From Dehalococcoidia bacterium (GTDB taxonomy: Bacteria; Chloroflexota; Dehalococcoidia; Lucifugimonadales; Australimonadaceae), in contig DAOUJX010000060.1 of NCBI GenBank assembly GCA_034422075.1, positions 5,515 to 69,514 on the forward strand: DNA of 64,000 nt, read 5' to 3'. Positions 16,220 to 36,059 of the stretch are shown one piece after another. Made by a program: the position numbers and the translations under genes. Each line of letters begins with the position of its first letter. The stretch's first letter is position 1. Below the pieces are notes generated by a model. It did not search any database, had not been told where the DNA came from, and saw only the letters and a list, made by a program, of their open reading frames with translations.

Positions 16220-16921
16220 CTACTCCAACGGTTGCGCTTGGTCGAACGCCGTAAAGGTCAGGATGCGCACGACCGGCGAGGGATCGTTGGTCAGCACGCT
16301 CCCCTCGATGCGCACGCGGCGCACGAGGCTATCGCTGCCCACCCAGACCTCGATGCGGGGCGTCAACGCCGCATCCGCGCCCCGGATGAGCGGCTGTATC
16401 GCCTCGCCCCCGACGCTACCTGCGATGCCGCGGGAGGCGACGCCGTCGAGCGCGTGTGTATCGGTATATGCCGGCTCCTGAAGCGCGAGCAGGATGCCGC
16501 CAAGCGTGTCTCCCAGGTCGTGCAGGTTGAAGGGCAACTCGCTCGCCGCTACGGGCAATAGTACGCCGGAGAGCGGGTCGGTCATCGCCGCGTCGTCGCC
16601 ATCGACGCGGATCTCCATTTCGATGAAGGCGTTGATCGCGCTGACCCTCGCCTCCACCTGCACCGAAGCACGGTCGGGGAGATGGACGCTGCCTTCCGCT
16701 TGCTGCAGCTCGATGCCTGCAAAGAGCGGCGTATGCCCCTCCTCGTGCGTTAGCGTGAACTCGACGGAGGTGAGCTCGCTCATACGCGCCGCCGCGTCGG
16801 CAAGACGCTCCGACGGCGGCTGCTCCGCTGATTCTGTGGCGCTATCCTCTCCGCACGCCGCCGCAACGGCCGCGAGCACCAGAAGCAGCGGGGCGGCGGT
16901 GAGCGCCTGGACCATTCGCAT
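16220..16921 (-). CDS. LppX/LprAFG-family lipoprotein (LprG-like)
   Basis: Signal peptide plus lipobox (LAAVAAAC-G). About 230 aa. Overall pattern resembles the lipid-binding LprG family. 6 nt upstream of the MFS gene. Confidence 0.65.
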   Translation of the reverse strand: MRMVQALTAAPLLLVLAAVAAACGEDSATESAEQPPSERLADAAARMSELTSVEFTLTHEEGHTPLFAGIELQQAEGSVHLPDRASVQVEARVSAINAFIEMEIRVDGDDAAMTDPLSGVLLPVAASELPFNLHDLGDTLGGILLALQEPAYTDTHALDGVASRGIAGSVGGEAIQPLIRGADAALTPRIEVWVGSDSLVRRVRIEGSVLTNDPSPVVRILTFTAFDQAQPLE

Positions 16922-17243
16922 CGCGCGGCAACCCTACCAACGCTCCCCCCGCACCACAAGGCGGCTAGGCGGCGTTGGACGTGCGGGTCCTATGCCAGGA
17001 CCGTGCGGTAGGCGCGAAGCAGACCCTGCATCCGGCACGCACCTCGGCGGCGCCCCACTCGCAGTCGGTTGCGCACAGCGACGCTACAGGGAGTGCGGAG
17101 GCGAAGTGCGCCGCCGCGCCCCTATGGGCAGAGGGCCAGTGGGTCGCTCAGCAGGCGCTCTACGTGCGCCTGCTCGGGCGCTAGCGGCCTTCGCAGAGAA
17201 AAGCTCTCTTGATCCAAGAATCCCGCTGCTGTTGCAAGACGCC

Positions 17244-17256
17244 GGGGGGGGGGGGG
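17244..17256. repeat. G13 homopolymer tract
   Basis: 13 consecutive G counted directly, followed by AATTGCCCTC. Intergenic, 63 nt beyond the stop of the 74-aa gene. Confidence 0.95.
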
Positions 17257-17318
17257 AATTGCCCTCAGGTGCGCTGTCTATGGGCGGCGGAGTCGGCCGT
17301 CGAGTTCAGGCTTATGGG

Positions 17319-17543
17319 CTAGTACGTGAAGAAGTAGACATACCATGTGGCGACCTCAGGGCCGTCACCACCCTCACCCGATTCGCACCCATGTCTCGTG
17401 GCCGCTCGATTCTCGGCCCCTTGCGCCGCCGTCTTGGTGGAGTGCAGGCTTATGACCTGCCAGTCCTGCAACGTTGGGTGCTGGCTCTCCCAGTACCTCC
17501 TCCGCGCTTCCATGTCCGTAGTGATTCCAACTCGACATGCCAT
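17319..17543 (-). CDS. Small conserved hypothetical protein (74 aa)
   Basis: Compact ORF MACRVGITTD...RRRYWESQHP...TKTAAQGAENR...WYVYFFTY. Resembles a widespread small protein family of unknown function; the family is not named with certainty. Confidence 0.5.
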   Translation of the reverse strand: MACRVGITTDMEARRRYWESQHPTLQDWQVISLHSTKTAAQGAENRAATRHGCESGEGGDGPEVATWYVYFFTY

Positions 17544-17688
17544 TTGGCGTACCCCCTTACGGGTTGCGGGCCGCCCGCATTGCGGGCCCGCCTTGGATGG
17601 GCTTAGTGCAGGCTACTACCTTGGCAGTCGTTCCAACAAGGAATGGCCATTAGCGGGTGGGTAAAGGGGCTTGCACAAACCCATTCGG

Positions 17689-25595: not shown

Positions 25596-26651
25596 CTACG
25601 CCCCTGTCTCGTCTAGCGCCAGCGCCAACTCGCCCATGACGTCGGCCAGGAGGCGGACGGACGCAATGGCGGTGGCGTAGTCCATCCGCGTCGGGCCAAT
25701 GACGGCGACGGCGCCCGACTCGCTGCCCGTTCCGCCGTAGCGTGAGAGCACAAGGCTGTATGGGTGAAGGTGCTTGTTGGCGTTCTCGGAGCCGATGATG
25801 ACCCGCACCTCGCCCGGGCGGAGTTGCTCCGCTACTAGGTCGCGCAGGGTCGCCTCGTCCTCCAGCACGGCGACTGCCTCACGCGCGTGGCTGCCCTCGA
25901 CGAACTCCGGCTGGCTGAGCATGTGGCGCAGGCCGGCGACGAAAGGGTGCTCGGCCGCGGCCGAGGCATGCACGCGCATCACGCGGCTTGCCTCGTCCAC
26001 CGCCGCATCGGCGAAGTCGTTGGCGCCCCGCTGCGATGCCCACACCGTCTGCACATCATCGGTTGCTGCGCCTCGTAGGCTATCGGTCAACAGGCTGGAG
26101 AGCTGCGCCAGTTCCTCCGGTGTGACGTCGTCGGGAGCCTGGATGGTGTGCTGCAGCACGTGGCCTTCGTGCAGCACCAACACGAGCAGAACGTGGCTGC
26201 CGTAGAGGTGGACGAGGTGAAGTTGCCTGATTCGCGCATCGCGCAGGCCGGGCGGCGCGGCGACGGCGACATTGTGCAGCGCCCCGGAGAGCACGGTGGC
26301 CGCCGTGCGTGCGGCGCCCTCGAAGTCGGCGGCGTCGAGGTGCGCCATTTCATCGCGTACGCGCCGCTCGAACGCAGGCGAGGGCTGCGCCGCCTCGGTC
26401 GAGCGCTCGACGTAGAATCGGTAGCCGCGGTCGGCAGGTACACCGCCGGCGGAGGTGTGGGGGCGGACGATGAAGCCACGCTCCTCCAACTCCGCCATGT
26501 CGTTGCGGATGGTGGCGGGGCTGACCTTAAGCGAGTGGCGTTTGACGATCTGCTGCGATGCGACGGGCGCAGCGGTGCGTATGTAGTCGTGGACAAGCAA
26601 CCGTAGAATCGCCTGTCGGCGCTGATTCAGGGTGATGGCGTCCGTTGCCAT
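25596..26651 (-). CDS. hrcA: Heat-inducible transcription repressor HrcA
   Basis: N-terminal wHTH (LNQRRQAILRLLVHDYI..APVASQ) and full-length HrcA pattern. Upstream of dnaJ. Confidence 0.9.
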   Translation of the reverse strand: MATDAITLNQRRQAILRLLVHDYIRTAAPVASQQIVKRHSLKVSPATIRNDMAELEERGFIVRPHTSAGGVPADRGYRFYVERSTEAAQPSPAFERRVRDEMAHLDAADFEGAARTAATVLSGALHNVAVAAPPGLRDARIRQLHLVHLYGSHVLLVLVLHEGHVLQHTIQAPDDVTPEELAQLSSLLTDSLRGAATDDVQTVWASQRGANDFADAAVDEASRVMRVHASAAAEHPFVAGLRHMLSQPEFVEGSHAREAVAVLEDEATLRDLVAEQLRPGEVRVIIGSENANKHLHPYSLVLSRYGGTGSESGAVAVIGPTRMDYATAIASVRLLADVMGELALALDETGA

Positions 26652-26738: not shown

Positions 26739-26748
26739 CACCCTAACT
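26739..26748. repeat. Target-site duplication, left copy (CACCCTAACT)
   Basis: Identical 10-mer immediately outside both terminal inverted repeats. Confidence 0.85.
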
Positions 26749-26765
26749 GGCTTTGCACAGAAACC
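26749..26765. repeat. Terminal inverted repeat, left (GGCTTTGCACAGAAACC)
   Basis: Exact reverse complement of 34750-34766. Confidence 0.9.
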
Positions 26766-26805
26766 CCCGCCCGCGCGCGAGTTTTTGTGCATGCCGCTTG
26801 GGATT

Positions 26806-28107
26806 TTATGCAGATGCGGTTTGCCGAGGGATGAGCAGGTCCATCATGCCCAGCTCGTAGGATGCGTGAATCAGCACGCTGATGTTGTGGCAGAGGAACT
26901 TGAGCAGGACTTCGTTGACCTGGGCGACGGGCGTCCGTGACCGGACGGATGCCCCGTACTTGTTCTTGACCATGCTGAAGGTGCTCTCGACGTTGGAGCG
27001 CTTGTGGTAGTGCGCACTGAACTCTTCGCTGTTGAACTTGACGTAGTGATAGTACCGCTCCCACTGGCTGTCCCGTGGCAGGTCTGGTGACACAGGGCGG
27101 GACTTGGCTTTCAGCGGGATGTACGCCCTCGCGCCGACTGCCTCGACCGCACGCACGTTCGCCCTGCTCAGGTAGGCTTTGTCGGCGGAGACCTCTTCGA
27201 TGTTGAAATGCCGCGCCGTCGCCTCCACGAAGGGCGCCAGGTAGCGGGTATCGTTGGTCGGGGTTGCTGTCGCCTCTGCCTGGGTGATGATGTTCGTCTT
27301 CACACCGCAGATCGCGTGAGCCTTGACCCATAGGATGTTGCGGATTGGTCTCCCCCACTTGTGGTCAAAGTAGCGGCCGTAGACCGACGTGCCGAACCCC
27401 GTGGAGTCAATGGCGAAATCGTGCTCTACCGCAGCCAGGGGGATGGCGCTCTGCTCGATGAGCTGCTTCAGTACGGGAGTCAGCGCTGGGTCTTCCATGT
27501 ACTTCCACAGCGACGCCACCGAGGGGGCCTTGGCAATGAGGCCGTCCGTGTTGGCGCTCCGAATGCCCGTCATGGCCCGCCTGGTCGAGAATCCCCCGTA
27601 GACCTTGAGGCTTGCCGCAAATACCACATCGGACAACGGCAGGCGGGGCCGCCCCGTTCCGCTGGCTGGAGGCTGCTCGATGGTGCTGCAAAGGTCGCGG
27701 AGCAGGGTCGCAAAGTGCTCTTGCTCGTGCTCCTGCGCTGCGTTGTAGAGCGCCCAGGGCTGGCCATAGGTGGTGCCGGTTGGGAGCGTTTCCAGGTCGG
27801 CTCCCAGCCCCAACTGTCCGTCCCGTCGTTTGACGACCATTTGGACAGCGTAGATGTGCTTGCAGAGGCCCGGCCGTTCCTCAAAGTCTGGGCAACTGCA
27901 ATAGGGCTCGGCGCGGTCGACGAGGACATAGTAGGTGCCTTTGCCGGACTGGCTGGGCACCTTGTAGCCCCTTCCGGACTCCCTGATGGGCGCGAGCGCT
28001 GCTATGGCCATTCCGCGCTGCTTGCGGCCCGCGTCTCCGTCGTCGGGTGCTCCGGGGCCCAAAGCAGTGATGAGGTTGGGGTCAAAGTCGAGTCGCTGAT
28101 TCTTCAT
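26806..28107 (-). CDS. DDE transposase (IS4/IS5 superfamily) with N-terminal SWIM-type zinc finger
   Basis: SWIM signature CSCPDF...CKH and a perfect Y(2)R(3)E(6)K signature (YHKRSNVESTFSMVK). The ATG at 28107 has AGGTGA upstream. An alternative GTG lies at 28131. Confidence 0.85.
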   Translation of the reverse strand: MKNQRLDFDPNLITALGPGAPDDGDAGRKQRGMAIAALAPIRESGRGYKVPSQSGKGTYYVLVDRAEPYCSCPDFEERPGLCKHIYAVQMVVKRRDGQLGLGADLETLPTGTTYGQPWALYNAAQEHEQEHFATLLRDLCSTIEQPPASGTGRPRLPLSDVVFAASLKVYGGFSTRRAMTGIRSANTDGLIAKAPSVASLWKYMEDPALTPVLKQLIEQSAIPLAAVEHDFAIDSTGFGTSVYGRYFDHKWGRPIRNILWVKAHAICGVKTNIITQAEATATPTNDTRYLAPFVEATARHFNIEEVSADKAYLSRANVRAVEAVGARAYIPLKAKSRPVSPDLPRDSQWERYYHYVKFNSEEFSAHYHKRSNVESTFSMVKNKYGASVRSRTPVAQVNEVLLKFLCHNISVLIHASYELGMMDLLIPRQTASA

Positions 28108-28142
28108 CTGTTCACCTATGGCGAGCACCACAATCTAGGCAC

Positions 28143-28224
28143 ACAGTACTATACATTGTATGGTATTGTCAATTTCTAGCCGGAATCTGTTGCGTTGACA
28201 GTCCTATACACTGTCTCTTACTGT
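28143..28224. promoter_or_regulatory. Back-to-back promoters (both TTGACA-N18-TACTGT) with a 19-bp palindromic candidate operator
   Basis: Minus strand: TTGACA (28167-28172), TACTGT (28143-28148). Plus strand: TTGACA (28195-28200), TACTGT (28219-28224). The palindrome TACTATACATTGTATGGTA (28147-28165) lies in the minus-promoter spacer. Confidence 0.4.
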
Positions 28225-28230
28225 CCTGTC

Positions 28231-28470
28231 ATGAACGACGTGCAGCGGAAGATTGCGGCTCTACAAGAGCGGGGTTGGACCTTGGCCGCCATCGCCGATG
28301 AGCTTGGCGTGACGCCTAATGCCGTCGAGAAGTGGAAGGCCGGCGTCCGCAACGCTACCAACCTCAAGTCCATTCTGGAGCACTTGGAGCGGCTGCAGCA
28401 CCGGCAACGTATCCCGAAGCAGCGCCGATACCAACTGGGGCGTTCACACAGAGCCGTGAGGAGTCGTTGA
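28231..28470 (+). CDS. Small helix-turn-helix DNA-binding protein (80 aa)
   Basis: HTH segment WTLAAIADELGVTPNAVEKW. The ATG lies 6 nt after the putative -10, so the transcript may be leaderless. Confidence 0.65.
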   Translation: MNDVQRKIAALQERGWTLAAIADELGVTPNAVEKWKAGVRNATNLKSILEHLERLQHRQRIPKQRRYQLGRSHRAVRSR

Positions 28471-28538
28471 TGGCTAAAGGCAAGAGCTTCAATTGGGATC
28501 GGCCCAAGCGCTGGGAGCGCAAGGTAGTGGAGGCCTAG
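28470..28538 (+). CDS. Possible 22-aa micro-ORF (MAKGKSFNWDRPKRWERKVVEA)
   Basis: The ATG overlaps the HTH stop (TGATG) and has GAGGAG upstream. Very short, so speculative. Confidence 0.25.
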   Translation: MAKGKSFNWDRPKRWERKVVEA

Positions 28539-28542
28539 CGTT

Positions 28543-30109
28543 ATGGGCGCTAAAGAACGCCGTGCTTCTCGCGCGCGCGTGACGAGTCCGCGCCTGCGGC
28601 CCCCCCCCGAGTCCATACCTAGGGGGACATGCCCTCGTCTGCGCGGACAACCTCGACATACTCAAGGGACTGCCCCCCGAGTGCGTTGACCTCATCTACT
28701 TAGACCCCCCCTTTCAGAGCAATCAGTTCTATGTTGCCGCCTTCGGCGACAAGGGGATGGTGGCGCGGCAGTTGCGCGACATATGGCGCTGGACTGCAGG
28801 GACGCAGACAGCGTTCGACAGCCTGCCACACGGCCAGTTGCTTGACACTCTACAGGGTATTCGCTTGCAAGTAGGGGAGAAGTCGCCAATGGCCGCGTAT
28901 GCGGTGTTCATGGGGCGGCGGCTTGCTGAGATGAGAAGGGTGCTCAAGCCGACGGGGAGCATCTATCTACATTGCGACTGGCACGCGAACGCCTACCTAC
29001 GGCTGCTCATGGATGCAGTGTTTGGGGCAGGCAACTTCAGGAATGAGATCGCGTGGTGCTATGACACGGCTGGGCGGACGCAACGCTACTGGAACCGCAA
29101 GCACGATTCCATTTTCTTCTACTCAAAGATGCAAGGGTGGACGTTCAACCCATTACGCATCCCTCGGCGCAACCTAACGGAAGGTTGGGAATCGTGGTAT
29201 TCGCTTACTGATGAGGATGGGCGCCGGTATCAAATAGACGGCAAGGGGTACAAGTACTACGCAGATGAAGGGCGCTTGGCAAATGACTGGTGGGATGATC
29301 TTCCCGCCCTGCACGCCCATAGGGATGAAGAACGAATAGGCTACCCCACACAGAAGCCGGTTGCCCTGCTGGAGCGCATCATCAAGGCCAGCAGCAACGC
29401 AGGTGACCTAGTGCTCGACCCATTTTGTGGGTGCGGTTCTGCGGCGGATGCAGCATACGCCAATGGCAGGCGCTACCTCGGTATCGACATCAGCGGGATC
29501 GCGGTACGTGTTATGCAGCAGCGAATGGAGTCGCGCGGCGATTCCCCATCGGTCTATGGGCTGACGTGGGATGAGATGGAATGGGAGGAGTTCGAGTATC
29601 GAGCACTCGCGCAGCGCGACGACGTGGAGGACGGTATACCAGGCTGGGCATGGGCAGAGGACAGGGTAGCAGCGCTGCTAAACGCGGTGCCGAACGAACG
29701 CAAGGTGGGCGACGGCGGCGTGGACGCGCGCTACTACGGCGCGATGGACATCGAACAACAGCAGGGAATCGTGATTCCCATACAGGTGAAGATGCACCGC
29801 ACGGCCTCGGTTGGGCGCCCCGACATGGATCGGCTGTTGGGCACGCAGACTGCGATGCAGAACCGAGGCGTGCACGCGCCGATGTCCCTCATGGTGAGTC
29901 TCTACCCGCCGCCGGAGTCCCTGCGTGTGTTTGCGATGGAGCAGGGGCGGGTGGCGCTGACGACACACGAAGGTGGGCATGAGGAATACCCGCGTATGCA
30001 GGTATTGAGCGTGGAGGAGATGTTGAGGCACGGAGAACGTCCGAAGTTGCCACCAGTGGACCCTCGCTCACTCGTCGGCGATACACAAACCCGAACCTCA
30101 TTGGTCTAG
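28543..30109 (+). CDS. Beta-class N6A/N4C DNA methyltransferase fused to a C-terminal Mrr-type (PD-(D/E)xK) nuclease domain; frame broken at a C9 tract
   Basis: Motif IV DLIYLDPPF comes before motif I VLDPFCGCGSA. C-terminal GDGGVDARYYG...VIPIQVK matches the Mrr catalytic pattern. The ATG at 28543 (GGAGG upstream) is +1 out of frame with the body. One fewer C at 28600-28608 restores a single ORF. Confidence 0.8.
28600..28608. repeat. C9 homopolymer at the frameshift point of the methyltransferase-nuclease gene
   Basis: Nine consecutive C counted directly. Confidence 0.95.
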
Positions 30110-30289
30110 ATGCGCCGACGGCGTAAGAGCATCCTCACCTTGGCCACAGACAATTGAAGTCTTCCACCGGCTCGCATCGACGTTTTGTCCCTCTCGACAT
30201 CGGACAAAAGGGTGGACGCTCGACATCTGATTGACGCCCCACAAACCGTGATGAGACCATCCATGGCGAGGATACGTTTCCATCATTGT

Positions 30290-30318
30290 TTGTTATTGTT
30301 AGTCAGTTAGTGTAAAAT
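30290..30318 (+). promoter_or_regulatory. Sigma70-type promoter TTGTTA-N17-TAAAAT
   Basis: AT-rich island 43 nt upstream of the AAA+ ATPase ATG, with hexamers at canonical spacing. Confidence 0.5.
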
Positions 30319-30360
30319 CCATCACATGACCGATCGGGCGCACGAGAGAGGCAGAGCCAT

Positions 30361-31632
30361 ATGAGCAAGAGGCGCAGGGCGAGCAAGAGCAGCCGGGAAA
30401 AGTTGATTAACCGGGAAATCCAGCTAGGTGAGGTGTTTACGCCGGCGGCGCCCATTGACCAACTGAGCCTTTTCGCTGGGCGTATTTCACAGAGGCGCTC
30501 GGTCGTCGACGCGATCTTTCAGCGCGGCCGCCACGCAATATTGTTTGGGGAGCGTGGTGTTGGCAAGACTTCGCTCGCCAGCGTCTTGCGCGAGTACCTT
30601 GAGAGCCTCGGACAGATCATCGTTGCTCCTCGTGTGAACTGCGACGACGGCGATGACTACTCAACGATCTGGTTCAAGGCTTTCGGTGACCTGCAGGTCA
30701 TTGAGAGCCGTCGAGGTATGGGCTTTACACCGGAGGTGCAGGCGATCGTTCGCTCAGCGAGCGACTCAATCGGAAACCTAGAATCTGTCACCCCTCACTA
30801 CGTACGGCAGTTACTAGAACAGCTCGGCGAGCAAACGATTCTAATTGTGATTGTCGACGAATTCGACCGTGTGGCCAGCCGGGTAGGGACGCAATTCGCT
30901 GACACCATCAAGATGCTCTCCGATCAGTCAGTGCCCGTGACACTGGTGCTCGTCGGGGTCGGCGAGACAGTCAGCTCGCTCATCAGCGAGCACGCTTCGA
31001 TTGAGCGCGCACTCGCTCAGGTGCGCCTACCCCGTATGTCTACATCCGAACTGCAAGAAATCGTCGACGGCGGGCTCTCAGAAGTCGGGATGTCCGCCGA
31101 GACAGTCGCACGGGACCGGATCGCTGCACTGTCGCAGGGGCTCCCGCACTACACTCACCTCATAGCGCTTTATGCGGCTCGTGATGCGAACGATGCCGGA
31201 TTGGACGTGGTAGGGGTCGAGAACGTCGCCGCAGGAATCCGCGAGGCGGTAGAGAACGCTCAGGAAACGATTACAACGACGCACCATCGGGCCGTGATGA
31301 GCACTCGGTCTGACTCACTCTACCGCCACGTTGCGCTCGCCTGCGCGCTTACTGAGACCGATGAGCGGGGCTACTTCACAGCAGGCGCGGTGCGGGAGCC
31401 GATGGCGGCAATTATGGGCAAGCCGTACGCGATTCCCGCGTTCGCAAAACACATGAACGAATTCTGCGGTGACCTGCGCGGCCCTATCCTTGAGAAGTTC
31501 GGAACGCAGCGGAACTACCGGTTCAGATTCCATAACCCCCTGCACCCACCCTACATAATCATGAGCGGAATCGCCCAGGGGCTGATCGCTGAGGACACGG
31601 CAGTTAGCATCCAGAACGGCGCGAGTGGCTAG
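30361..31632 (+). CDS. AAA+ ATPase, ORC/Cdc6-like (archaeal-ATPase type) with C-terminal winged-helix-like region
   Basis: Walker A GERGVGKTS, Walker B ILIVIVDEFDRV, a sensor-like region, and a basic N-terminus (KRRRASKSSREK). Confidence 0.8.
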   Translation: MSKRRRASKSSREKLINREIQLGEVFTPAAPIDQLSLFAGRISQRRSVVDAIFQRGRHAILFGERGVGKTSLASVLREYLESLGQIIVAPRVNCDDGDDYSTIWFKAFGDLQVIESRRGMGFTPEVQAIVRSASDSIGNLESVTPHYVRQLLEQLGEQTILIVIVDEFDRVASRVGTQFADTIKMLSDQSVPVTLVLVGVGETVSSLISEHASIERALAQVRLPRMSTSELQEIVDGGLSEVGMSAETVARDRIAALSQGLPHYTHLIALYAARDANDAGLDVVGVENVAAGIREAVENAQETITTTHHRAVMSTRSDSLYRHVALACALTETDERGYFTAGAVREPMAAIMGKPYAIPAFAKHMNEFCGDLRGPILEKFGTQRNYRFRFHNPLHPPYIIMSGIAQGLIAEDTAVSIQNGASG

Positions 31633-31689
31633 GGAAATCCCGCGGTTATCGCGCGCGCGAGTCTTGAGGCACCTAGGGGGAGTCCCAAT

Positions 31690-31749
31690 TTTCAGAACCG
31701 CACGCTCTTCCACGGTGACAACCTAGCCATTCTGCGTGGGATGAACTCC
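31690..31749 (+). pseudogene. Remnant of a second DNA methyltransferase N-terminus (FQNRTLFHGDNLAILRGMNS)
   Basis: Paralogous at the protein level to ALVCADNLDILKGLP of the intact gene. No start codon and no DPPF follow. Runs into the 3' end of the Fic gene. Confidence 0.45.
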
Positions 31750-31794
31750 GCGTGGGAAGACCCGGGCACCGCATCGGGCGATTATTGGCAGGCC

Positions 31795-32400
31795 CTAGGG
31801 CTCACCAATTTGTTGGCGAACCAGTTCCCCGATGAGCGACATGAGTGGGATGAGGTCGCCGCGATCCGCCCACTCTAATGCTTGCACGTAACGCGAATGG
31901 TGCGCACCTTCGAGTAACTCAGGCAAGAGTGGGCGGCCTGGTAGCAATCCCCCGACCTTAAGGCAGAGAGTAAGGTAGCACACAGCCCGTGCAGTGCGCC
32001 CATTGCCGTTCACGAAGGGGTGGACAGAGTTGATGCGCCACAGCGCGTAAGCCGCCAACCGCAACTCCGACCAATCCGCCCAAGCATCATTCACTTGGCG
32101 GACGAATTGGCTCATCAGGTCAGGTACGCATGTGTGGTCGGGCGGGCGATAGCGTACCACCCCCTGATCATCCATCACCGTAACGTTCGTTGTGCGGTAT
32201 TGGCCTGCCGTCGAGTGGAGCAAGACGACAGCCTGATAGTTTATTGCCTTGATACGCCAGTCGCTCAACTGGGGCGACTGCGTTTGCAGAGCAACCTTGA
32301 TGAGGGTCTGAAGGAAGTGGTAGTAGCGCTCAGAGTTTTCAGCTTCGACGGCTCGATAGAGTGGGTTCTCTTCGCCGCCCTTGAGCTGGGCGAGGTTCAA
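31795..32400 (-). CDS. Fic-domain protein (putative AMPylase/toxin)
   Basis: Fic motif HPFVNGNGRTAR (31987-32022). 201 aa. Last gene of a four-gene operon. Confidence 0.9.
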   Translation of the reverse strand: MNLAQLKGGEENPLYRAVEAENSERYYHFLQTLIKVALQTQSPQLSDWRIKAINYQAVVLLHSTAGQYRTTNVTVMDDQGVVRYRPPDHTCVPDLMSQFVRQVNDAWADWSELRLAAYALWRINSVHPFVNGNGRTARAVCYLTLCLKVGGLLPGRPLLPELLEGAHHSRYVQALEWADRGDLIPLMSLIGELVRQQIGEP

Positions 32401-32405
32401 GACAC

Positions 32406-32618
32406 TTACTCTGTGATCGGCCCGTAGCGGTCATCGAGCATCTGCATGACCTCCTCGCGAGACATCGTGCTCCTTCTGCCACTGAAGCCCATGACTGCGG
32501 AGACGAGTTGCTCCCGCTTCTCTTTCGGAGTCATCAGAGGGTAGCGTTTCGTGGCCTCTGCTAGCAGATCACTGGTTTCTTTGAACCACGCTTCGTCCTT
32601 CCCGAATTTTGCTGCCAT
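32406..32618 (-). CDS. 70-aa helical protein, candidate Fic partner/antitoxin
   Basis: Stop lies 5 nt before the Fic start. Charged and helical. No canonical (S/T)xxxE(G/N) motif; the closest is TMSREE. Confidence 0.45.
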   Translation of the reverse strand: MAAKFGKDEAWFKETSDLLAEATKRYPLMTPKEKREQLVSAVMGFSGRRSTMSREEVMQMLDDRYGPITE

Positions 32619-32650
32619 CGCTACTCTCCTTTGCAGTTACGGTAAGGGCA

Positions 32651-32920
32651 TCAGCGGCTGACGGCGAGGCGCCTGAGATGTACTTGCCCTTCATCGTCAT
32701 CTATATCGAAGTAGAGGCGGAGGGGCAGTTGCGCCCCCCTGATGTGTATCACATGAAACCGAGTCCCAGGGACCATCGGGGCCAAGTGGGGAGTAAGAGC
32801 AAGGTCGCGGTAGTACCCTGCGAGAATCTCATCCCAACGCATGAAGGAGCCGACAATGCTCTCAACTTGGGCTTGGAACTGTGCCGACTCGACCATTGTG
32901 TAGGAGGGCCTACCGTCCAA
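32651..32920 (-). CDS. Small RelE/ParE-like toxin candidate (81-89 aa)
   Basis: C-terminal pattern LRLYFDIDDDEGQVHLRRL resembles the RelE/ParE fold. Overlaps the stop of the upstream DUF4065 gene. Start is the TTG at 32920 or the ATG at 32896. Confidence 0.4.
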   Translation of the reverse strand: MDGRPSYTMVESAQFQAQVESIVGSFMRWDEILAGYYRDLALTPHLAPMVPGTRFHVIHIRGAQLPLRLYFDIDDDEGQVHLRRLAVSR

Positions 32921-33473
32921 GACCGAGTTCTTCAGTGAGCGCTAGGCTATGCTCAATGTCTTCCTCGTCAATATACTCCAATGAAAGCCATGCGGACGAA
33001 TAGGGGATGTCCTCCATTGGCTTTGCGGCCAGCCAGCCCCATTCTAGATGAGACAGCTCCGACGCCTCTCTTGCCGTCATGTGCCAAAGCTCTCCAATGA
33101 CCTCATCGAGGATTTCCACTTCCTCTGGACGTAGGATGCCTTCCGTCGGTTCGTCCAAGGCGACGATGCGGTGTTGGACGCCAGTAAAATAAGGGCGAGG
33201 CTCAATGCGGATGGCCTCCTTGCGTATCAGCCTTCGCCTTGCCTCAAGCATTTGCTTCGGCGCAGGGCCTTGATCTAACCGATAGTACGTCGCTCCGGTG
33301 ATAGGCTCACCCAGCCTCCGGTATGCCTCAAAGTCGGCGAAGTAGAGGATCTTATTGAGCTTGACGGCTCCGAAGCGCTCATCCCCCTCGCTGTGCTTGG
33401 CGATATAGATGATGGCCTCATCGAATTTGCGTTCGTCGAATGTTTCTATGTAGGGGCGGCCCACTTCCGCCAT
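32910..33473 (-). CDS. Panacea/DUF4065 (SocA/GepA-like) antitoxin-domain protein
   Basis: Core pattern AVKLNKILYFADFEAYRRLGEPITGATYYRLDQGPAP. 187 aa. SD CAGGAGG upstream. Confidence 0.75.
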   Translation of the reverse strand: MAEVGRPYIETFDERKFDEAIIYIAKHSEGDERFGAVKLNKILYFADFEAYRRLGEPITGATYYRLDQGPAPKQMLEARRRLIRKEAIRIEPRPYFTGVQHRIVALDEPTEGILRPEEVEILDEVIGELWHMTAREASELSHLEWGWLAAKPMEDIPYSSAWLSLEYIDEEDIEHSLALTEELGLGR

Positions 33474-33532
33474 GACGCCTCCTGACTAGTTTGAGCCTCG
33501 ACTAATCCTAGCCTCCTTGAGGCTGACAGGCC

Positions 33533-33561
33533 CATATAATACAAATATACACAATTGTCAA
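33533..33561 (-). promoter_or_regulatory. Sigma70-type promoter TTGACA-N17-TATATG for the DUF4065...Fic operon
   Basis: Read on the minus strand in an AT-rich island 60-88 nt upstream of the ATG at 33473. Confidence 0.55.
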
Positions 33562-33644
33562 CACCACCCTCAACCTCTTAGTGTCACGAGATCTTATCCT
33601 GCGGCGGGCTGACTGCCCTCCAGCCCCATCGCTAGACTGGATGG

Positions 33645-33661
33645 GGTTCTTGTGCAAAGCC
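33645..33661. repeat. Internal copy of the right terminal repeat (GGTTCTTGTGCAAAGCC, 15/17 identical)
   Basis: Same orientation as the IR-R at 34750-34766. Confidence 0.6.
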
Positions 33662-34109
33662 AAGGCACCCCAGGAGTCTCGGTTGGTTGAGGAATGCCTC
33701 GCGGTGCTCCTCGTAGATCTGCTCTTTGTCCATGCCCTCGTATACAGAGCCTGAATCCATGTGGCGCGACCTTCTCCCTAGTCCTCGCCCTCGTCCTTGT
33801 CGTTGTCTTGTGCTTGCCGTTCCCTGTACAGCATGTCTAGGGGCAGCGACCGCCAAGGGCAGTCGGGCTCGACACAGAGCGTGTCCGCCCTAGCGGTCTC
33901 GATCCCGCACGTGCATATGCCCATGGGGCCTCCCAGGGAAGATCCCGGCCGTCATGGCCAAGAACCGCCGACCACTTGCGGCCTGTAGTAAAATACGCTC
34001 ACGCGGCATACAGCAAAACAGGGGCATTAGGCGTGCCCCTGGATGCTCAGCGTAGGCTGGAATGCACTAACGTCGTAAAGCGCATTCTACTTCCTGCTCA
34101 AAGGATGTC

Positions 34110-34146
34110 AAGCCCGCGCGGAGACAACTCGCGCGGGCTTTTGCTT
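34110..34146 (+). terminator. Intrinsic-terminator-like hairpin (AAGCCCGCGCG-9nt-CGCGCGGGCTT + TTGCTT)
   Basis: 11-bp GC-rich stem followed by a T-rich tail on the plus strand only. No annotated plus-strand CDS lies upstream. Confidence 0.5.
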
Positions 34147-34349
34147 GGCCCTCGCGGAGAAAGGAAGTGCGCCTATGCCTACCCGAAAAATAGGCATCCG
34201 CCGGACAGTGCGCGTGGGAACACGCGTAACGGTCAAACGGAAGGTAACCGTTAGAACCACCCGGCGACGATAGCCCAAGGACAGGCACCCTGATCTTTGG
34301 TCAGGGTGCCCATCCTACACACCTCACACCACTAGGTAGGAGGAAAGGC

Positions 34350-34688
34350 GTGGCTAGGAATGTCGTCAGGTCAGGGCTGCACCACAGAAAAAGCAGGAGG
34401 AGCCTGGTGTCCCAAGATGAGGTGCTGATATGTGTCGAATGTAGAGTCGAAGCCCAAGTTGAAGGTGTCGACGGTCAGATTGACCGAATAACCTGTCCAT
34501 CGTGTGCCGTGTCGGTCGAAGGCGATAGCGGTCTCGAGATGGCACTCAAACAATTGAGCCATGACACTATCCGTGAATTCCAGGAGCGCCTCAAGCGCAC
34601 ATTTGGAAAAGGCGGCCCGGTCAGCTATAGCCCCGGCCGCCTCAATAACCCTAGAAGCCCATTCATCGTCGGTATACCTGACTCGTAG
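34350..34688 (+). CDS. Small zinc-ribbon protein (CxxC...CxxC), hypothetical
   Basis: CVEC and CPSC pairs. GTG start with AGGAGG 9 nt upstream. Confidence 0.5.
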   Translation: MARNVVRSGLHHRKSRRSLVSQDEVLICVECRVEAQVEGVDGQIDRITCPSCAVSVEGDSGLEMALKQLSHDTIREFQERLKRTFGKGGPVSYSPGRLNNPRSPFIVGIPDS

Positions 34689-34711
34689 GGGCTAGTCTTC
34701 TCTGGGAACGG

Positions 34712-34743
34712 GGTTGATGTGCAAAGAGCCGAGTTTTTGTGCA
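34712..34743. repeat. Subterminal repeat boxes (GGTTGATGTGCAAAGAGCC + CGAGTTTTTGTGCA)
   Basis: The first box resembles the IR. The 14-mer CGAGTTTTTGTGCA also occurs at 26778-26791 in the same orientation. Confidence 0.55.
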
Positions 34744-34749
34744 GGAGGC

Positions 34750-34766
34750 GGTTTCTGTGCAAAGCC
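34750..34766. repeat. Terminal inverted repeat, right (GGTTTCTGTGCAAAGCC)
   Basis: Exact reverse complement of 26749-26765. Confidence 0.9.
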
Positions 34767-34776
34767 CACCCTAACT
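34767..34776. repeat. Target-site duplication, right copy (CACCCTAACT)
   Basis: Identical to 26739-26748. Confidence 0.85.
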
Positions 34777-34904: not shown

Positions 34905-36059
34905 GTGATTTCACCGGCTCGTATCCAGGTCACTGAACTGCGCAGGACATACGGGTTCGAGGAGGTGGCGATAGTCCCGGGCGACGTTACGACCAACCCC
35001 GAGCTCTCGATCACTATCCTCGAAATCGGCCCCTTCCAATTCACCACGCCCGTCATCGCCTCGGCGATGGACGCCATCGTCGATGCCAACTTTGCCGGCC
35101 TAATGGCCAAGGCGGGCGGCCTTGGCGTCATGAACCTCGAAGGCGTCTACTCCCGCTACGAGGACCCCGCCGAGGCGCTTGAGGCCATCACCTCCGCCCC
35201 CCGCGAGAGCGTGACGGAGGTGATGCAGAGCGTGTACTCGCAGCCGTTGCGCGATGACCTCGTTGCGCAGCGTGTCGCCGACATCAAGGCGACGGGCGCG
35301 GTTGCCGCCGTCTCCGTCACTCCGCAGAGCGCCAAGCGGCTGGCTCAGGTCGCGGTCGAGGCAGGCGCCGACATCATCGTCGTCCAATCCACCGTCACCA
35401 CGGCGCGGCACATCTCCAACTCCTACCACGGGCTGCGCTTCTCCGAACTTATCCCGCTCATCAGAGTTCCGGTCGTTGTCGGCAACTGCGTAACCTACAG
35501 CGCGGCGCTCGAACTGATGGAGCAGGGCATCGACGGGTTGTTGGTCGGCGTTGGACCGGGCGCGGCCTGCACGACGCGCGACGTTACGGGCGTCGGCGTA
35601 CCGCAGGTGAGCGCAACGCTCGACTGCGCGGCAGCGCGAGACGAGTACTTCGCGCGATCCGGCAAGCACGTTGCGGTTATCACCGACGGCGGGATTCGCA
35701 CGGGCGGCGACCTATGCAAGGCCATCGCAGCGGGCGCCGACGGCGTCATGATTGGCACACCGTTCGCGCAGACGCTGGAGGCGCCGGGCCGCGGCTTCAA
35801 CTGGGGCATGGCGAGCCCGCATCCGGCGCTGCCGCGCGGCACGCGCATCAACGTCGGCGTGGAGGCATCTCTCGAGCAGGTTCTCTTCGGGCCGAGCCAC
35901 CGCACCGACGGGACGCACAACCTGATGGGCGCACTCAAGGTCTGCATGTCGATGGTCGGCGCGCAGACTATAGAGGAGTTCCACGAGCGCGCCGAGCTAG
36001 TGGTAGCGCCCACCATCGCAACGGAGGGCAAGGTCTTCCAGCGCGCGGGGCGGATCTAA
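34905..36059 (+). CDS. IMP dehydrogenase-family protein lacking a CBS insert (GuaB3-like)
   Basis: TIM-barrel IMPDH/GMPR pattern (TTPVIASAMD, GVGPGAACTTR, ITDGGIRTGGD). 384 aa. Confidence 0.85.
   Translation: MISPARIQVTELRRTYGFEEVAIVPGDVTTNPELSITILEIGPFQFTTPVIASAMDAIVDANFAGLMAKAGGLGVMNLEGVYSRYEDPAEALEAITSAPRESVTEVMQSVYSQPLRDDLVAQRVADIKATGAVAAVSVTPQSAKRLAQVAVEAGADIIVVQSTVTTARHISNSYHGLRFSELIPLIRVPVVVGNCVTYSAALELMEQGIDGLLVGVGPGAACTTRDVTGVGVPQVSATLDCAAARDEYFARSGKHVAVITDGGIRTGGDLCKAIAAGADGVMIGTPFAQTLEAPGRGFNWGMASPHPALPRGTRINVGVEASLEQVLFGPSHRTDGTHNLMGALKVCMSMVGAQTIEEFHERAELVVAPTIATEGKVFQRAGRI

What the first reader, a model, noticed from the sequence alone, without database searches (positions are those of the whole stretch)
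28195..31632. Non-canonical restriction-like module: HTH, micro-ORF, beta-class methyltransferase fused to an Mrr-type nuclease, ORC/Cdc6-like AAA+ ATPase
The 28543-30109 gene joins a complete beta-class amino-methyltransferase to a C-terminal domain. The methyltransferase has DPPF before FCGCGS. The C-terminal domain has the Mrr catalytic pattern (GDGGVDA...IPIQVK). Mrr-type domains are best known from methylation-dependent Type IV enzymes, so fusion to a methyltransferase is paradoxical unless the two activities are coordinated. Downstream, under its own TTGTTA-N17-TAAAAT promoter, lies a 423-aa AAA+ ATPase of the ORC/Cdc6/archaeal-ATPase type with a winged-helix-like tail. This is not the helicase/translocase class used by Type I/III systems, BREX or DISARM. 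A small HTH gene leads the operon, in a controller-protein-like position. The hypothesis is a three-component modification/restriction or abortive-defence system carried by the transposon. An alternative is that the AAA+ protein is a TniB/TnsC/MuB-like transposition target selector.
Basis: inference. Interest (0 to 1): 0.8.

Follow-up and report, generated by a model that had tools for sequence, protein, structure and literature searches.

The report
Transposon cargo: phase-variable methylase, solo ATPase
The proposed three-gene restriction system is really several unrelated stand-alone genes riding on one 8-kb transposon; the most notable is a DNA methylase fused to a nuclease-like domain, currently switched off by a slippery run of nine C's.

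Summary
There is an HTH gene. There is a beta-class N6_N4 methyltransferase with DPPF before FCGCGS and an Mrr-type (PD-QxK) C-terminal domain. There is an ORC/Cdc6-like AAA+ ATPase with a winged-helix tail. All lie on a transposon (inverted repeats at 26749 and 34766, 10-bp target duplication).

Two things do not hold. First, 28543-30109 is not one ORF. The leader ATG and the methyltransferase body are in different frames across a C9 tract (28600-28608), so the gene is off. Homologues carry the same tract at C7, C8, C10, C11 or C14, in or out of frame, which looks like phase variation.

Second, the trio is not a system. None of 80 genome loci (plus three close-homologue contigs) with the fusion has the ATPase or the HTH. 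None of about 130 independent ATPase loci has the fusion.

Both genes belong to large, solitary, functionally uncharacterised families found in chromosomes, plasmids and prophage accessory regions. In a sister clade the ATPase sits inside IS1-like elements.

Verdict: ordinary transposon cargo made of catalogued parts. Two leads are worth keeping: the poly-C switch on a possibly self-contained restriction-modification enzyme, and the orphan ATPase family.

The parts
26739..26748 (.). Left target-site duplication CACCCTAACT
   Evidence: Identical 10-mer directly abuts both transposon ends
26749..26774 (+). Left terminal inverted repeat (GGCTTTGCACAGAAACC...)
   Evidence: 26-nt inverted repeat, 88% complementary to 34741-34766. 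The 17-mer occurs only three times in the window
26806..28131 (-). Transposase, 441 aa: N-terminal SWIM zinc finger plus DDE_Tnp_1 (IS4/IS5 superfamily)
   Evidence: Pfam DDE_Tnp_1 1.1e-18, SWIM 3e-6. NCBIfam IS5-type 113 bits, below its cut-off
28231..28470 (+). Small HTH protein, 79 aa from the ATG (91 aa from TTG 28195)
   Evidence: HTH_23 and HTH_3 above Pfam cut-offs. The gene caller on L081 starts at the ATG. No homologue next to any other fusion gene, nor in the plasmid or phage collections
28470..28538 (+). Micro-ORF, 22 codons (MAKGKSFNWDRPKRWERKVVEA)
   Evidence: ATG overlaps the HTH stop (TGATG), with GAGGAG upstream. It stops 4 nt before the leader ATG. Conservation could not be tested because no homologous HTH loci were found
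28543..28689 (+). Basic leader ORF of the methyltransferase gene. In the present C9 state it terminates after 48 codons
   Evidence: Translation. The leader resembles the MPPRxRR...PPP leaders of homologues
28600..28608 (+). Poly-C tract (C9), the frameshift point. C8 or C11 would join the leader to the methyltransferase body
   Evidence: Homologues carry C7, C8, C10, C11 or C14 at the same place, in or out of frame
28583..29539 (+). Beta-class N6_N4 methyltransferase body: DPPF at 28703-28714, variable target-recognition segment, FCGCGS at 29423-29440
   Evidence: Pfam 3.6e-40. All family-invariant residues are retained. 11 target-recognition types among 71 close homologues
29540..30109 (+). 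C-terminal Mrr-type PD-QxK (restriction-endonuclease fold) domain: GDGGVDA at 29708-29728, IQVK within 29774-29791
   Evidence: Mrr_cat hit in 44 of 46 homologues and NA-iREase1 in 38 of 46. D58, D62 and K84 are near-invariant. AF2 model pLDDT 86.8; best PDB match is MspJI
30290..30318 (+). Promoter-like TTGTTA-N17-TAAAAT ahead of the ATPase
   Evidence: Found by the consensus scan, but not above shuffle expectation
30361..31632 (+). Stand-alone ORC/Cdc6-like AAA+ ATPase with C-terminal winged helix, 423 aa
   Evidence: AAA_22 and AAA_16. PHROG 6841 at 2.5e-44. AF2 pLDDT 94; best PDB hits are ORC1/Cdc6 at E about 1e-11
31795..32400 (-). Fic-domain protein, 201 aa
   Evidence: Pfam Fic 2.2e-14, PADLOC SoFic 2e-17
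32406..32618 (-). 70-aa ORF upstream of Fic, in antitoxin-like position
   Evidence: Homologous small ORF also precedes Fic in L082 and L083. No family hit
32651..33473 (-). SocA/Panacea-domain protein (187 aa, 32910-33473) followed by an overlapping 89-aa ORF (32651-32920); toxin-antitoxin-like pair
   Evidence: Pfam SocA_Panacea 1.6e-18
33643..33662 (-). Internal extra copy of the right-end inverted repeat
   Evidence: 20 nt, 90% complementary to the left end
34741..34766 (-). Right terminal inverted repeat
34767..34776 (.). Right target-site duplication CACCCTAACT

Best explanation
The region is the left half of an 8,018-bp cargo transposon (26749-34766). The transposon has collected several autonomous, mutually unrelated accessory genes; it is not a multi-component system.

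Gene 1 is a member of a large family of about 500-aa solitary enzymes.
- It is a beta-class adenine-type (DPPF) methyltransferase with a swappable central target-recognition segment, fused to a C-terminal Mrr-type PD-QxK domain.
- Its translation depends on a hypermutable poly-C tract that links a short basic leader to the enzyme body.
- Here the tract is C9, so the gene is in the OFF phase. C8 or C11 would restore it.
- When ON, the protein most likely works alone. It recognises one sequence through its target-recognition segment and methylates host copies.
- By inference, it may also use the PD-QxK domain to nick or cut unmethylated copies, as a compact single-chain restriction-modification enzyme. 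The less exciting option is that the nuclease-fold domain only holds DNA.
- In this element the gene has been placed behind an HTH gene and a micro-ORF with coupled stops and starts. That is a local arrangement, not a family trait.

Gene 2, the ORC/Cdc6-like AAA+/winged-helix ATPase, is an independent stand-alone gene with its own intergenic region. Its biochemical role is unknown. Its distribution marks it as a self-sufficient accessory gene of mobile elements.

What is shown: domain identities, the frameshift, the tract polymorphism, the lack of co-occurrence and the transposon borders.

What is inferred: slippage-driven switching, nuclease activity and any defence role.
For: Transposon:
- 26-nt inverted repeats and a perfect 10-bp direct repeat abut both ends.
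- GC falls from about 67% to 56-63% across 26.7-34.9 kb.

No system:
- 0 of 80 fusion loci contain an ATPase or HTH homologue.
- No neighbour family recurs in more than 6 of 79 loci.
- The closest fusion homologues (73-82% identity) sit among housekeeping genes.
- 0 of 80 metagenome ATPase loci contain the fusion.
- ATPase relatives at 73-78% identity are solitary in housekeeping contexts.
- 42 loci (viral, phage, plasmid and close-relative contigs) show no conserved neighbour.

Fusion family:
- At least 8000 homologues. 74 of 85 ORFs carry the C-terminal domain.
- The profile search returns PF22722+PF04471+PF01555 architectures.
- The family also occurs on plasmids and in 28 phage records, next to integrases in phages Dori and Werner.
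- 11 target-recognition types sit on one conserved scaffold.

OFF state and switching:
- Frames and the C9 tract. The Logan contig also shows C9.
- All family-invariant residues are intact.
- Homologues: C7 in frame (L002), C14 in frame (L176), C10 out of frame (L004), C8 out of frame (L015), C11 out of frame with its leader (L177, L178).
- Leaders with PPP, PPPP or PPPPP occur in 8 proteins.
- 4 tracts of C>=7 were found in the 5' windows of 89 genes, against 0.18 expected.

Nuclease-like domain:
-.
- The PD-QxK definition comes from PMC12707154.

ATPase:
-.
- Kevin1 gp30 lies in the cluster N central variable region (PMC6544188).
Against: - The HTH, micro-ORF and leader are tightly packed with overlapping or near-abutting stops and starts. 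This fits a real operon in this element, so local co-regulation of HTH and methyltransferase cannot be excluded.
- The co-occurrence samples were drawn with short peptide patterns and capped at 80 loci each, from hundreds of matches.
- Switching is inferred from differences between assemblies, not from read-level heterogeneity. Some assemblies may carry homopolymer errors.
- About 40% of the wider family has SxK instead of QxK, and Pfam names the best-matching model an 'inactive' restriction endonuclease. Cleavage activity is therefore uncertain.
- No PDB match of the C-terminal model reaches E<=0.001.
- A same-subfamily Fic module lies beside the ATPase both here and in L082/L083, in different orientations. 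This hints that the ATPase may not always be strictly solitary.
Confidence: 0.7

Rival explanations
1. One reading: HTH, micro-ORF, methyltransferase-Mrr fusion and the ORC/Cdc6-like ATPase form one three-component restriction/modification or abortive-defence system.
For: The four genes are co-oriented and adjacent on a mobile element, alongside other defence or addiction-type cargo (Fic, Panacea). The HTH, micro-ORF and leader are translationally coupled. PADLOC gives weak hits of the HTH to PDC-M64B (1e-7) and of the ATPase to mad8 (3e-6, P-loop region only).
Against: No co-occurrence was seen in any direction in roughly 210 independent loci. A 251-nt spacer with a promoter-like site separates the ATPase from the fusion. 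Both families thrive as single genes in housekeeping contexts and in phages.
Confidence: 0.04
2. The ATPase is a transposition accessory protein, acting as a TniB/TnsC/MuB/IstB-like target selector or regulator for the element that carries it.
For: In a sister clade (ATPases 40-48% identical to one another) the gene is bracketed by a divergent IS1-like transposase (11 loci) and a convergent 80-90-aa basic protein (12 loci; 8 loci have both). The whole unit is flanked by GGTAGTG... terminal inverted repeats in L122, L126 and L146. There is a weak Pfam TniB hit of 19.1 bits against a cut-off of 22.4. Here too the gene lies inside a transposon.
Against: The neighbouring transposases belong to different families: IS1-like, IS1595 in L083, and DDE_Tnp_1/SWIM here. 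That fits cargo better than a co-evolved helper. Relatives at 73-78% identity have no transposase nearby and are syntenic after a peptidase gene in two genomes. Phage copies sit in accessory regions between the lysis or tail genes and the integrase. In the window the ATPase is 2.2 kb from the transposase and on the opposite strand.
Confidence: 0.15
3. The methyltransferase-nuclease gene is simply a dead pseudogene. The frameshift is decay, not a switch.
For: Leader and body are out of frame, and there is no alternative start before DPPF. The public annotation calls only a 406-aa truncated product (P0002). Several homologues are also out of frame.
Against: The 1.5-kb body is otherwise intact, and every residue invariant across 15 homologues is retained. 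The lesion lies exactly in a homopolymer that recurs at the same position with five other lengths, including in-frame ones. Such tracts are about 20-fold enriched at this spot.
Confidence: 0.2
4. The fusion is a methyltransferase only. On this view the C-terminal restriction-endonuclease-fold domain is catalytically inert and serves DNA binding, dimerisation or sensing. The gene would then be an orphan or phasevarion-type epigenetic regulator, or in phages an anti-restriction methylase. This rival concerns only the activity of the fused domain and is compatible with the main explanation's other points.
For: 38 of 46 C-termini match Pfam NA-iREase1, 'NACHT-associated inactive restriction endonuclease', at up to 1.5e-18. 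Q of QxK is replaced by S in 18 of 46. The gene is tolerated as a lone gene in phages and next to housekeeping genes. Phase-variable methyltransferases acting as regulators are well documented (papers listed).
Against: D58, D62 and K84 are invariant or nearly so across 46-84 diverse sequences. That is unexpected for a decayed site. The window's own subfamily keeps the full D...QxK pattern. The best structural match is the active Mrr-like enzyme MspJI. Target-recognition swapping on a fixed scaffold is typical of restriction systems under diversifying selection.
Confidence: 0.4

Closest known systems
Type ISP single-chain restriction-modification enzymes (LlaGI, LlaBIII)
   Same: One polypeptide combines an Mrr-family nuclease with an adenine methyltransferase and a target-recognition element, and acts on unmodified DNA (PMC2790908, PMC4666363). 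This shows that the Mrr-methyltransferase combination is not paradoxical.
   Different: Type ISP enzymes are about three times larger. They place the nuclease at the N-terminus, contain an SF2 helicase motor and use a gamma-class methyltransferase. The window protein has no motor, uses a beta-class methyltransferase (DPPF before FxGxG) and carries the nuclease-like domain at the C-terminus.
Phase-variable Type IIG enzymes (e.g. Campylobacter jejuni Cj0031) and Type III Mod phasevarions
   Same: A homopolymer in the coding region switches a methyltransferase-containing restriction-modification protein on and off (PMC4889913, PMC3936762). Like Type III Mod, the window protein has the beta-class order with a central variable target-recognition segment (PADLOC MTase_III hits at 1e-35).
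   Different: Known cases are in host-adapted pathogens. Type IIG enzymes have gamma-class methyltransferases with N-terminal nucleases. Type III systems need a separate Res helicase-nuclease, which is absent here. Switching is only inferred here.
EcoKMrr / MspJI (Type IV, Mrr_cat PD-QxK nucleases)
   Same: The same catalytic-domain signature is present (GDGGxD ... QxK). Pfam Mrr_cat matches across the family. MspJI is the best structural match. PADLOC mREase_IV hits occur in 7 of 46.
   Different: Those enzymes pair the domain with a methyl-sensing wH or SRA domain and have no methyltransferase (PMC12707154). Here the partner is a methyltransferase.
Pfam PF22722 NA-iREase1 + PF01555 architecture ('DNA methylase/NACHT-associated inactive restriction endonuclease' in JGI annotation)
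   Same: This is the catalogued architecture of the wider family to which the window gene belongs.
   Different: The window's own subfamily is divergent. It matches only Mrr_cat, below threshold, and forms a narrow group of 41 clusters at 50% identity. No functional study of the architecture turned up in the literature searches I ran.
ORC1/Cdc6 initiators and archaeal Arch_ATPase proteins (SSO1545, PABY2304)
   Same: AAA+ core, lid and C-terminal winged helix. Foldseek E 1e-11 to 1e-9, probability 1.0, with near full-length alignments.
   Different: Only 12-16% sequence identity. The window ATPase is a bacterial accessory gene with no origin or replication context. It falls far below the NCBIfam orc1/cdc6 cut-off: 18.7 bits against 181.
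PHROG 6841 / Mycobacterium phage Kevin1 gp30 'AAA-ATPase'
   Same: Full-length family match at 2.5e-44, with 41% identity to Kevin1 gp30. It is a solitary gene in mobile-element accessory regions.
   Different: Uncharacterised. The Kevin1 paper only flags it as an orpham in the variable region where cluster N defence genes lie (PMC6544188).

Membership tests
Beta-class N6/N4 DNA methyltransferase (Pfam PF01555) | Profile match above the gathering score | tested here: met
   138.7 bits against a cut-off of 26.7, E 3.6e-40
Beta-class N6/N4 DNA methyltransferase (Pfam PF01555) | Motif IV (D/S)PP(Y/F) N-terminal to motif I FxGxG, with the target-recognition segment between them | tested here: met
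   DPPF at aa 41-44 and FCGCGS at aa 281-286 of the 28583 frame. The variable segment lies between them
Beta-class N6/N4 DNA methyltransferase (Pfam PF01555) | An intact translatable gene that includes motif IV | tested here: not met
   There is no start codon in frame upstream of DPPF. The leader ATG is out of frame at the C9 tract
Mrr_cat / PD-QxK nuclease domain (Pfam PF04471) | Profile match above the gathering score | tested here: inconclusive
   Window sequence scores 18.9 bits against 21. 44 of 46 homologous C-termini match at E<=0.01, best 2e-12
Mrr_cat / PD-QxK nuclease domain (Pfam PF04471) | Catalytic D ... QxK residues present | tested here: met
   GDGGVDA and IQVK are present. D58, D62 and K84 are conserved in 45-46 of 46. 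Q82 is Q in 28 and S in 18; the window has Q
Mrr_cat / PD-QxK nuclease domain (Pfam PF04471) | Restriction-endonuclease (PD-(D/E)xK) fold | tested here: met
   AF2 pLDDT 86.8. The top PDB matches are MspJI, EcoO109I and Nt.BspD6I at probability 0.84-0.94, but with E about 1e-2 only
Mrr_cat / PD-QxK nuclease domain (Pfam PF04471) | DNA cleavage activity | not testable with these tools
   Needs biochemistry
C-protein-controlled Type II restriction-modification system | A small HTH controller conserved upstream of the restriction or methyltransferase genes across related systems | tested here: not met
   No HTH homologue in 80 fusion loci or beside the three closest homologues. No homologue in the plasmid or phage collections
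Single-chain Type IIG/IIC restriction-modification enzyme | Nuclease, methyltransferase and recognition functions in one self-sufficient polypeptide | tested here: inconclusive
   The architecture and solitary distribution fit. Nuclease activity is untested. The class and domain order differ from described Type IIG enzymes, a comparison I make from general knowledge rather than a test
Type III restriction-modification system | A Res helicase-nuclease gene adjacent to mod | tested here: not met
   No conserved neighbour in 79 loci. None in the window
Phase-variable (contingency) methyltransferase gene | A simple-sequence repeat in the coding region whose length sets the reading frame | tested here: met
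   C9 at 28600-28608 lies between the leader and the body
Phase-variable (contingency) methyltransferase gene | Repeat length varies between and within populations, giving ON and OFF alleles | tested here: inconclusive
   Between homologues: C7 and C14 ON; C8, C9, C10 and C11 OFF. Within-population variation was not testable because reads are not available
ORC/Cdc6-type AAA+ ATPase | AAA+ core with Walker A and B, lid, and C-terminal winged helix | tested here: met
   GERGVGKT and VIVDEFD. Foldseek to ORC1/Cdc6 at E 1e-11 over about 420 columns
ORC/Cdc6-type AAA+ ATPase | Sequence-level membership (NCBIfam TIGR02928 orc1/cdc6) | tested here: not met
   18.7 bits against a cut-off of 181.3
TniB/TnsC/IstB-type transposition ATPase | Profile match above threshold, and a gene adjacent to its cognate transposase | tested here: not met
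   TniB 19.1 bits against 22.4. In the window it is not adjacent to the transposase, and close relatives lack any transposase. A sister clade does sit inside IS1-like units
Known anti-phage systems (PADLOC-DB v2) | Component proteins match the models of one described system | tested here: not met
   Only generic MTase_II/III hits, weak mad8 and PDC hits for the ATPase and HTH, and PDC-S02 or mREase_IV for the C-terminal domain

The most novel reading that the evidence does not exclude
The roughly 500-aa beta-class methyltransferase with a C-terminal Mrr-type PD-QxK domain is a previously uncharacterised class of minimal, motor-less, single-chain restriction-modification enzyme. Its specificity diversifies by swapping the target-recognition segment. 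In environmental Chloroflexota its expression is switched on and off by a poly-C tract. That would extend phase-variable restriction-modification beyond host-adapted pathogens.
Probability: 0.25. Interest if true: 0.6.

Novelty: new member of a known kind. Interest (0 to 1): 0.35.

Why it matters
It shows that an attractive 'new multi-gene defence system' read from gene order alone dissolves once co-occurrence is checked. The genes are independent transposon cargo.

Two leads remain.

1. A very large, catalogued but unstudied family of methyltransferase/Mrr-like fusions appears to be gated by a slippery poly-C tract in free-living Chloroflexota. If the nuclease domain is active, these would be the smallest self-contained restriction-modification enzymes of their kind, and a source of new specificities: 11 target-recognition types among 71 close relatives.

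2. A widespread orphan ORC/Cdc6-like ATPase travels alone in prophage accessory regions, on plasmids and on transposons, and lies inside IS1-like elements in one clade. It is therefore a candidate single-gene mobile-element function that has not been characterised.

Tried and rejected
- Sequence search of the C-terminal domain against PDB, alone and as a 46-sequence profile, gave nothing relevant: designed repeat proteins and a marginal Rpb5 hit.
- NCBIfam gave no family-level name for the fusion, the C-terminal domain or the ATPase.
I rebuilt the alignment from permitted proteins.
- I looked for an integrase or tRNA to explain the island as an integrative element. There is no tRNA and no integrase among the ORFs. 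The inverted repeats and target duplication explain the island instead.
- A Fic-ATPase functional link was considered. It holds only for L082/L083. The Clavibacter plasmid Fic is unrelated beyond the motif, and no Fic appears in 80 metagenome or about 30 viral ATPase loci.
- The transposase link via L099 was a marginal 36-bit hit and was dropped.
- The Rfam scan of 26-36 kb found nothing above chance.
- Scanning the viral collection and all held loci for the inverted-repeat 17-mer gave only single, uninformative matches.
- Literature searches for the Pfam architecture and for 'NA-iREase' found no functional study.
- Cluster look-up gave no source names or accessions, so the organism was not identified. 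The nearest relatives are Dehalococcoidia/Chloroflexota MAGs.

Full report
**Setting**

The window averages about 67% G+C. Between hrcA (25596-26651, minus strand) and an IMPDH-like gene (34905-36059) it drops to 56-63%. That low-GC stretch is bounded by the following features:
- 26-nt inverted repeats, GGCTTTGCACAGAAACC..., at 26749-26774 and 34741-34766;
- a perfect 10-bp direct repeat, CACCCTAACT, immediately outside both ends, at 26739-26748 and 34767-34776;
- a third, internal copy of the right-end repeat at 33643-33662.

A 10-bp match abutting both ends is not expected by chance. The whole 8,018-bp segment therefore inserted as one transposon. It encodes:
- a 441-aa SWIM + DDE_Tnp_1 transposase (26806-28131, minus strand);
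- the genes of the finding;
- a Fic protein with a small upstream ORF;
- a SocA/Panacea pair;
- a 112-aa ORF.

No tRNA or integrase is present.

**Checking the observation**

Most of the anatomy is as described.
- The HTH ORF passes the Pfam thresholds for HTH_23 and HTH_3.
- The 22-codon micro-ORF (28470-28538) starts on the HTH stop (TGATG) behind a GAGGAG. It ends 4 nt before the next ATG.
- The methyltransferase matches N6_N4_Mtase at 3.6e-40. DPPF (28703-28714) lies upstream of FCGCGS (29423-29440).
- GDGGVDA and IPIQVK are present.
- The 423-aa ATPase has Walker A and B motifs and hits AAA_22 and AAA_16.
- TTGTTA-N17-TAAAAT exists at 30290-30318. Such matches are no more frequent here than in shuffled sequence.

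One important point is wrong: 28543-30109 is not a gene.
- The interval is 1567 nt long, which is not a multiple of three.
- ATG 28543 opens a frame that stops at 28689.
- The methyltransferase frame is open from 28583 but has no ATG, GTG or TTG until 28757, which is beyond DPPF.
- The two frames cross at a run of nine C's (28600-28608).
- A Logan contig built from run SRR13587046 is 100% identical over 7.8 kb, C9 included. I could not establish whether that run is independent of the window's own assembly.
- The public annotation of this genome calls only a 406-aa truncated product (P0002).

**The fusion gene as a family**

The conceptual 508-aa product has at least 8000 homologues. The best are 57-82% identical over their full length of about 500 aa.

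In the alignment, three parts are highly conserved: the N-terminal methyltransferase part, motif I, and the entire C-terminal 190 residues. The segment between FRNEI and GYPTQKP is replaced wholesale. There are 11 target-recognition types among 71 close relatives, while their C-terminal parts form a single cluster.

Of 85 homologous ORFs in 80 genome loci, 74 carry the C-terminal domain. The hosts span:
- Chloroflexota, which hold the nearest relatives (Dehalococcoidia MAGs);
- Alphaproteobacteria, Acidobacteriota, Verrucomicrobiota and Actinomycetota;
- Bathyarchaeia.

The family also occurs on plasmids and in 28 phage records at 80% coverage or more. In Mycobacterium phage Dori (gp42) and Streptomyces phage Werner (gp48) it lies close to the integrase.

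**The C-terminal domain**

The evidence for an Mrr-type domain builds up in steps.
- On the window sequence alone, Mrr_cat is just below threshold: 18.9 bits against 21.
- Across 46 homologous C-termini, 44 match Mrr_cat (best 2e-12). 38 match PF22722 NA-iREase1 (best 1.5e-18).
- A profile search returns fragments annotated PF22722+PF04471+PF01555. Some are named by JGI 'DNA methylase/NACHT-associated inactive restriction endonuclease'.
- Residue conservation: D58 and D62 are present in 45 of 46 sequences and K84 in 46 of 46. The Q of QxK is Q in 28 and S in 18. The window has Q.
- The AF2 model (pLDDT 86.8) finds MspJI as its best PDB match (probability 0.94). EcoO109I, Nt.BspD6I and other PD-(D/E)xK nucleases follow. 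E-values are only about 1e-2, and no match reaches 1e-3.
- PADLOC models PDC-S02 (32 of 46) and mREase_IV (7 of 46) also match.

Whether it cuts DNA is open.

It is not paradoxical. In EcoKMrr and MspJI the methyl-dependence resides in separate wH or SRA domains (PMC12707154). Type ISP enzymes already fuse an Mrr-family nuclease to a methyltransferase and attack unmodified DNA (PMC2790908, PMC4666363).

**The poly-C tract**

Homologues start either about five residues before the YLxGN motif or with a short basic leader, such as MPPRRRRSSPPPPDFSHK..., that ends in PPP, PPPP or PPPPP. At the DNA level those prolines are a C homopolymer.

| Locus | Tract | Frame relative to leader ATG |
|---|---|---|
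| L002 | C7 | in frame |
| L176 | C14 | in frame |
| L004 | C10 | out of frame |
| L015 | C8 | out of frame |
| L177 / L178 | C11 | out of frame (gene caller used a GTG instead); P0066 has the same leader in frame |
| window | C9 | out of frame |

In the unbiased set of 89 genes, four carry C>=7 within the roughly 60 nt at this position, against 0.18 expected from the loci themselves. The window holds only two homopolymers of 9 nt or more in 64 kb. Apart from the shift, the window gene keeps every family-invariant residue.

This is the pattern of a slipped-strand contingency locus, here in the OFF phase (C8 or C11 would be ON). Precedents include phase-variable Type IIG and Type III methyltransferases (PMC4889913, PMC3936762). 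Switching itself is inferred, because I had no reads.

**Is the trio a system?**

No.
- tblastn with the window's ATPase and HTH found nothing in the 80 fusion loci.
- Clustering all neighbours found no family in more than 6 of 79 loci.
- The three closest fusion homologues (73-82% identity) sit among housekeeping genes, without HTH or ATPase.

From the other side, the ATPase belongs to a family of more than 4300 proteins of 410-425 aa.
- In 80 metagenome loci none has the fusion or the HTH.
- Relatives at 73-78% identity are single genes in housekeeping contexts. Two of them are syntenic behind a peptidase gene.
- A clustering run over 42 ATPase loci (viral loci plus the phage, plasmid and close-relative contigs) found no conserved partner.

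**The ATPase**

Its AF2 model (pLDDT 94) aligns over about 410-430 columns with Drosophila, yeast and human ORC1, archaeal Cdc6/Orc1 and the archaeal ATPases SSO1545 and PABY2304, at E 1e-11 to 1e-9. The alignments include the C-terminal winged helix. The ORC/Cdc6-type call is therefore right at the fold level, although sequence-level membership fails (TIGR02928 18.7 bits against 181).

It matches PHROG 6841, of unknown function, at 2.5e-44 over its full length. Homologues occur as:
- Kevin1 gp30, beside a HicB-like gene in the central variable region between the lysis cassette and the integrase. The authors flag it as an orpham of possible relevance to cluster N immunity (PMC6544188);
- Gordonia phage Cashline gp34, between the tail genes and the integrase;
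- genes on Clavibacter and Salinibacter plasmids.

A sister clade shows a stable three-gene unit: a divergent IS1-like transposase (11 loci), the ATPase, and a convergent 80-90-aa basic protein (12 loci; 8 loci have both). ATPases in those loci are only 40-48% identical to one another. The unit is bracketed by GGTAGTG... inverted repeats in L122, L126 and L146.

Three observations argue instead for a portable, self-sufficient cargo gene whose function is unknown:
- the transposase families differ between contexts (IS1-like; IS1595 in L083; DDE_Tnp_1/SWIM here);
- close relatives have no transposase;
- phage copies sit in accessory regions next to the integrase.

**Local arrangement**

In this transposon the HTH, micro-ORF and leader are packed with coupled stops and starts. 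They probably form one transcript.

Orthologues L002 and L176 instead have their own TTGACA-N17-TATATT promoter directly upstream. The HTH has no detectable relatives beside other fusion genes, or in the plasmid and phage collections. A controller-protein role is therefore possible locally, but it is not a family property.

**Verdict**

- The domain annotations are confirmed.
- The continuous-gene claim is wrong.
- The three-component system is not supported.

What is present is an 8-kb cargo transposon carrying independent accessory genes. They are built from catalogued but functionally unstudied families.

Two points are worth keeping:
- the poly-C switch on a possibly self-contained, compact restriction-modification enzyme;
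- the orphan ORC/Cdc6-like ATPase family.

Noticed in passing
window 28600-28608; L002, L004, L015, L176, L177/L178 5' ends of the homologous genes: A poly-C tract of variable length (C7, C8, C9, C10, C11, C14) sits at the same place in the 5' coding leader of related methyltransferase/Mrr-like genes, in or out of frame. This looks like slipped-strand phase variation in environmental Chloroflexota.
   Followed up: partly
L122:251-2848, L126:6330-9493, L146:808-3777 (also L105, L107, L112, L148, L152): In a sister clade the ATPase forms a conserved unit with a divergent IS1-like transposase (about 293 aa) and a convergent 80-90-aa basic protein (motif KNPAAVALGRLGGLKGGKARA). The unit is flanked by GGTAGTG... 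terminal inverted repeats, so it is an IS1-like element with two extra genes.
   Followed up: partly
window 31795-32618 (-); L082:6978-7793, L083:3961-4759: A Fic protein (52% identical) with a homologous small upstream ORF lies directly beside the 88%-identical ATPase in two other contigs, but on the other side and in the other orientation. This is either recurrent association or an island effect. It was not seen in more distant ATPase loci.
   Followed up: partly
window 26749-34766, with 33643-33662: The 8-kb transposon has no right-end repeat next to the transposase gene. It has two candidate right ends (33662 and 34766), which suggests cargo capture by use of alternative ends. The transposase combines a SWIM zinc finger with DDE_Tnp_1, and the target duplication is 10 bp.
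   Followed up: partly
window 17244-17256: A G13 homopolymer, the longest in the window, lies inside a 370-aa ORF (16494-17606, +) that has no Pfam match. It may be another contingency locus.
   Followed up: partly
window 32651-33473 (-): A SocA/Panacea-domain protein (187 aa) is followed by an overlapping 89-aa ORF with no family match. It is a toxin-antitoxin-like pair whose partner is unclassified.
   Followed up: no
L164 (phage Dori gp42), L165 (phage Werner gp48): Full-length homologues of the methyltransferase/Mrr-like fusion lie next to the integrase in temperate actinophages. That is a position typical of lysogen-expressed accessory genes.
   Followed up: partly
L044:6037-8257, L071:1201-7931, L176:3001-7533: Some genomes carry two paralogous N6_N4 methyltransferase genes within a few kb. 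In L044 and L071 both carry the Mrr-like C-terminal domain.
   Followed up: no
window 28149-28168 and 28197-28215: By eye, there are imperfect palindromes (TACTATACA-T-TGTATGGTA; GACAGT-N7-ACTGTC) in the 100 nt between the transposase start and the HTH start. They could be operator sites.
   Followed up: no
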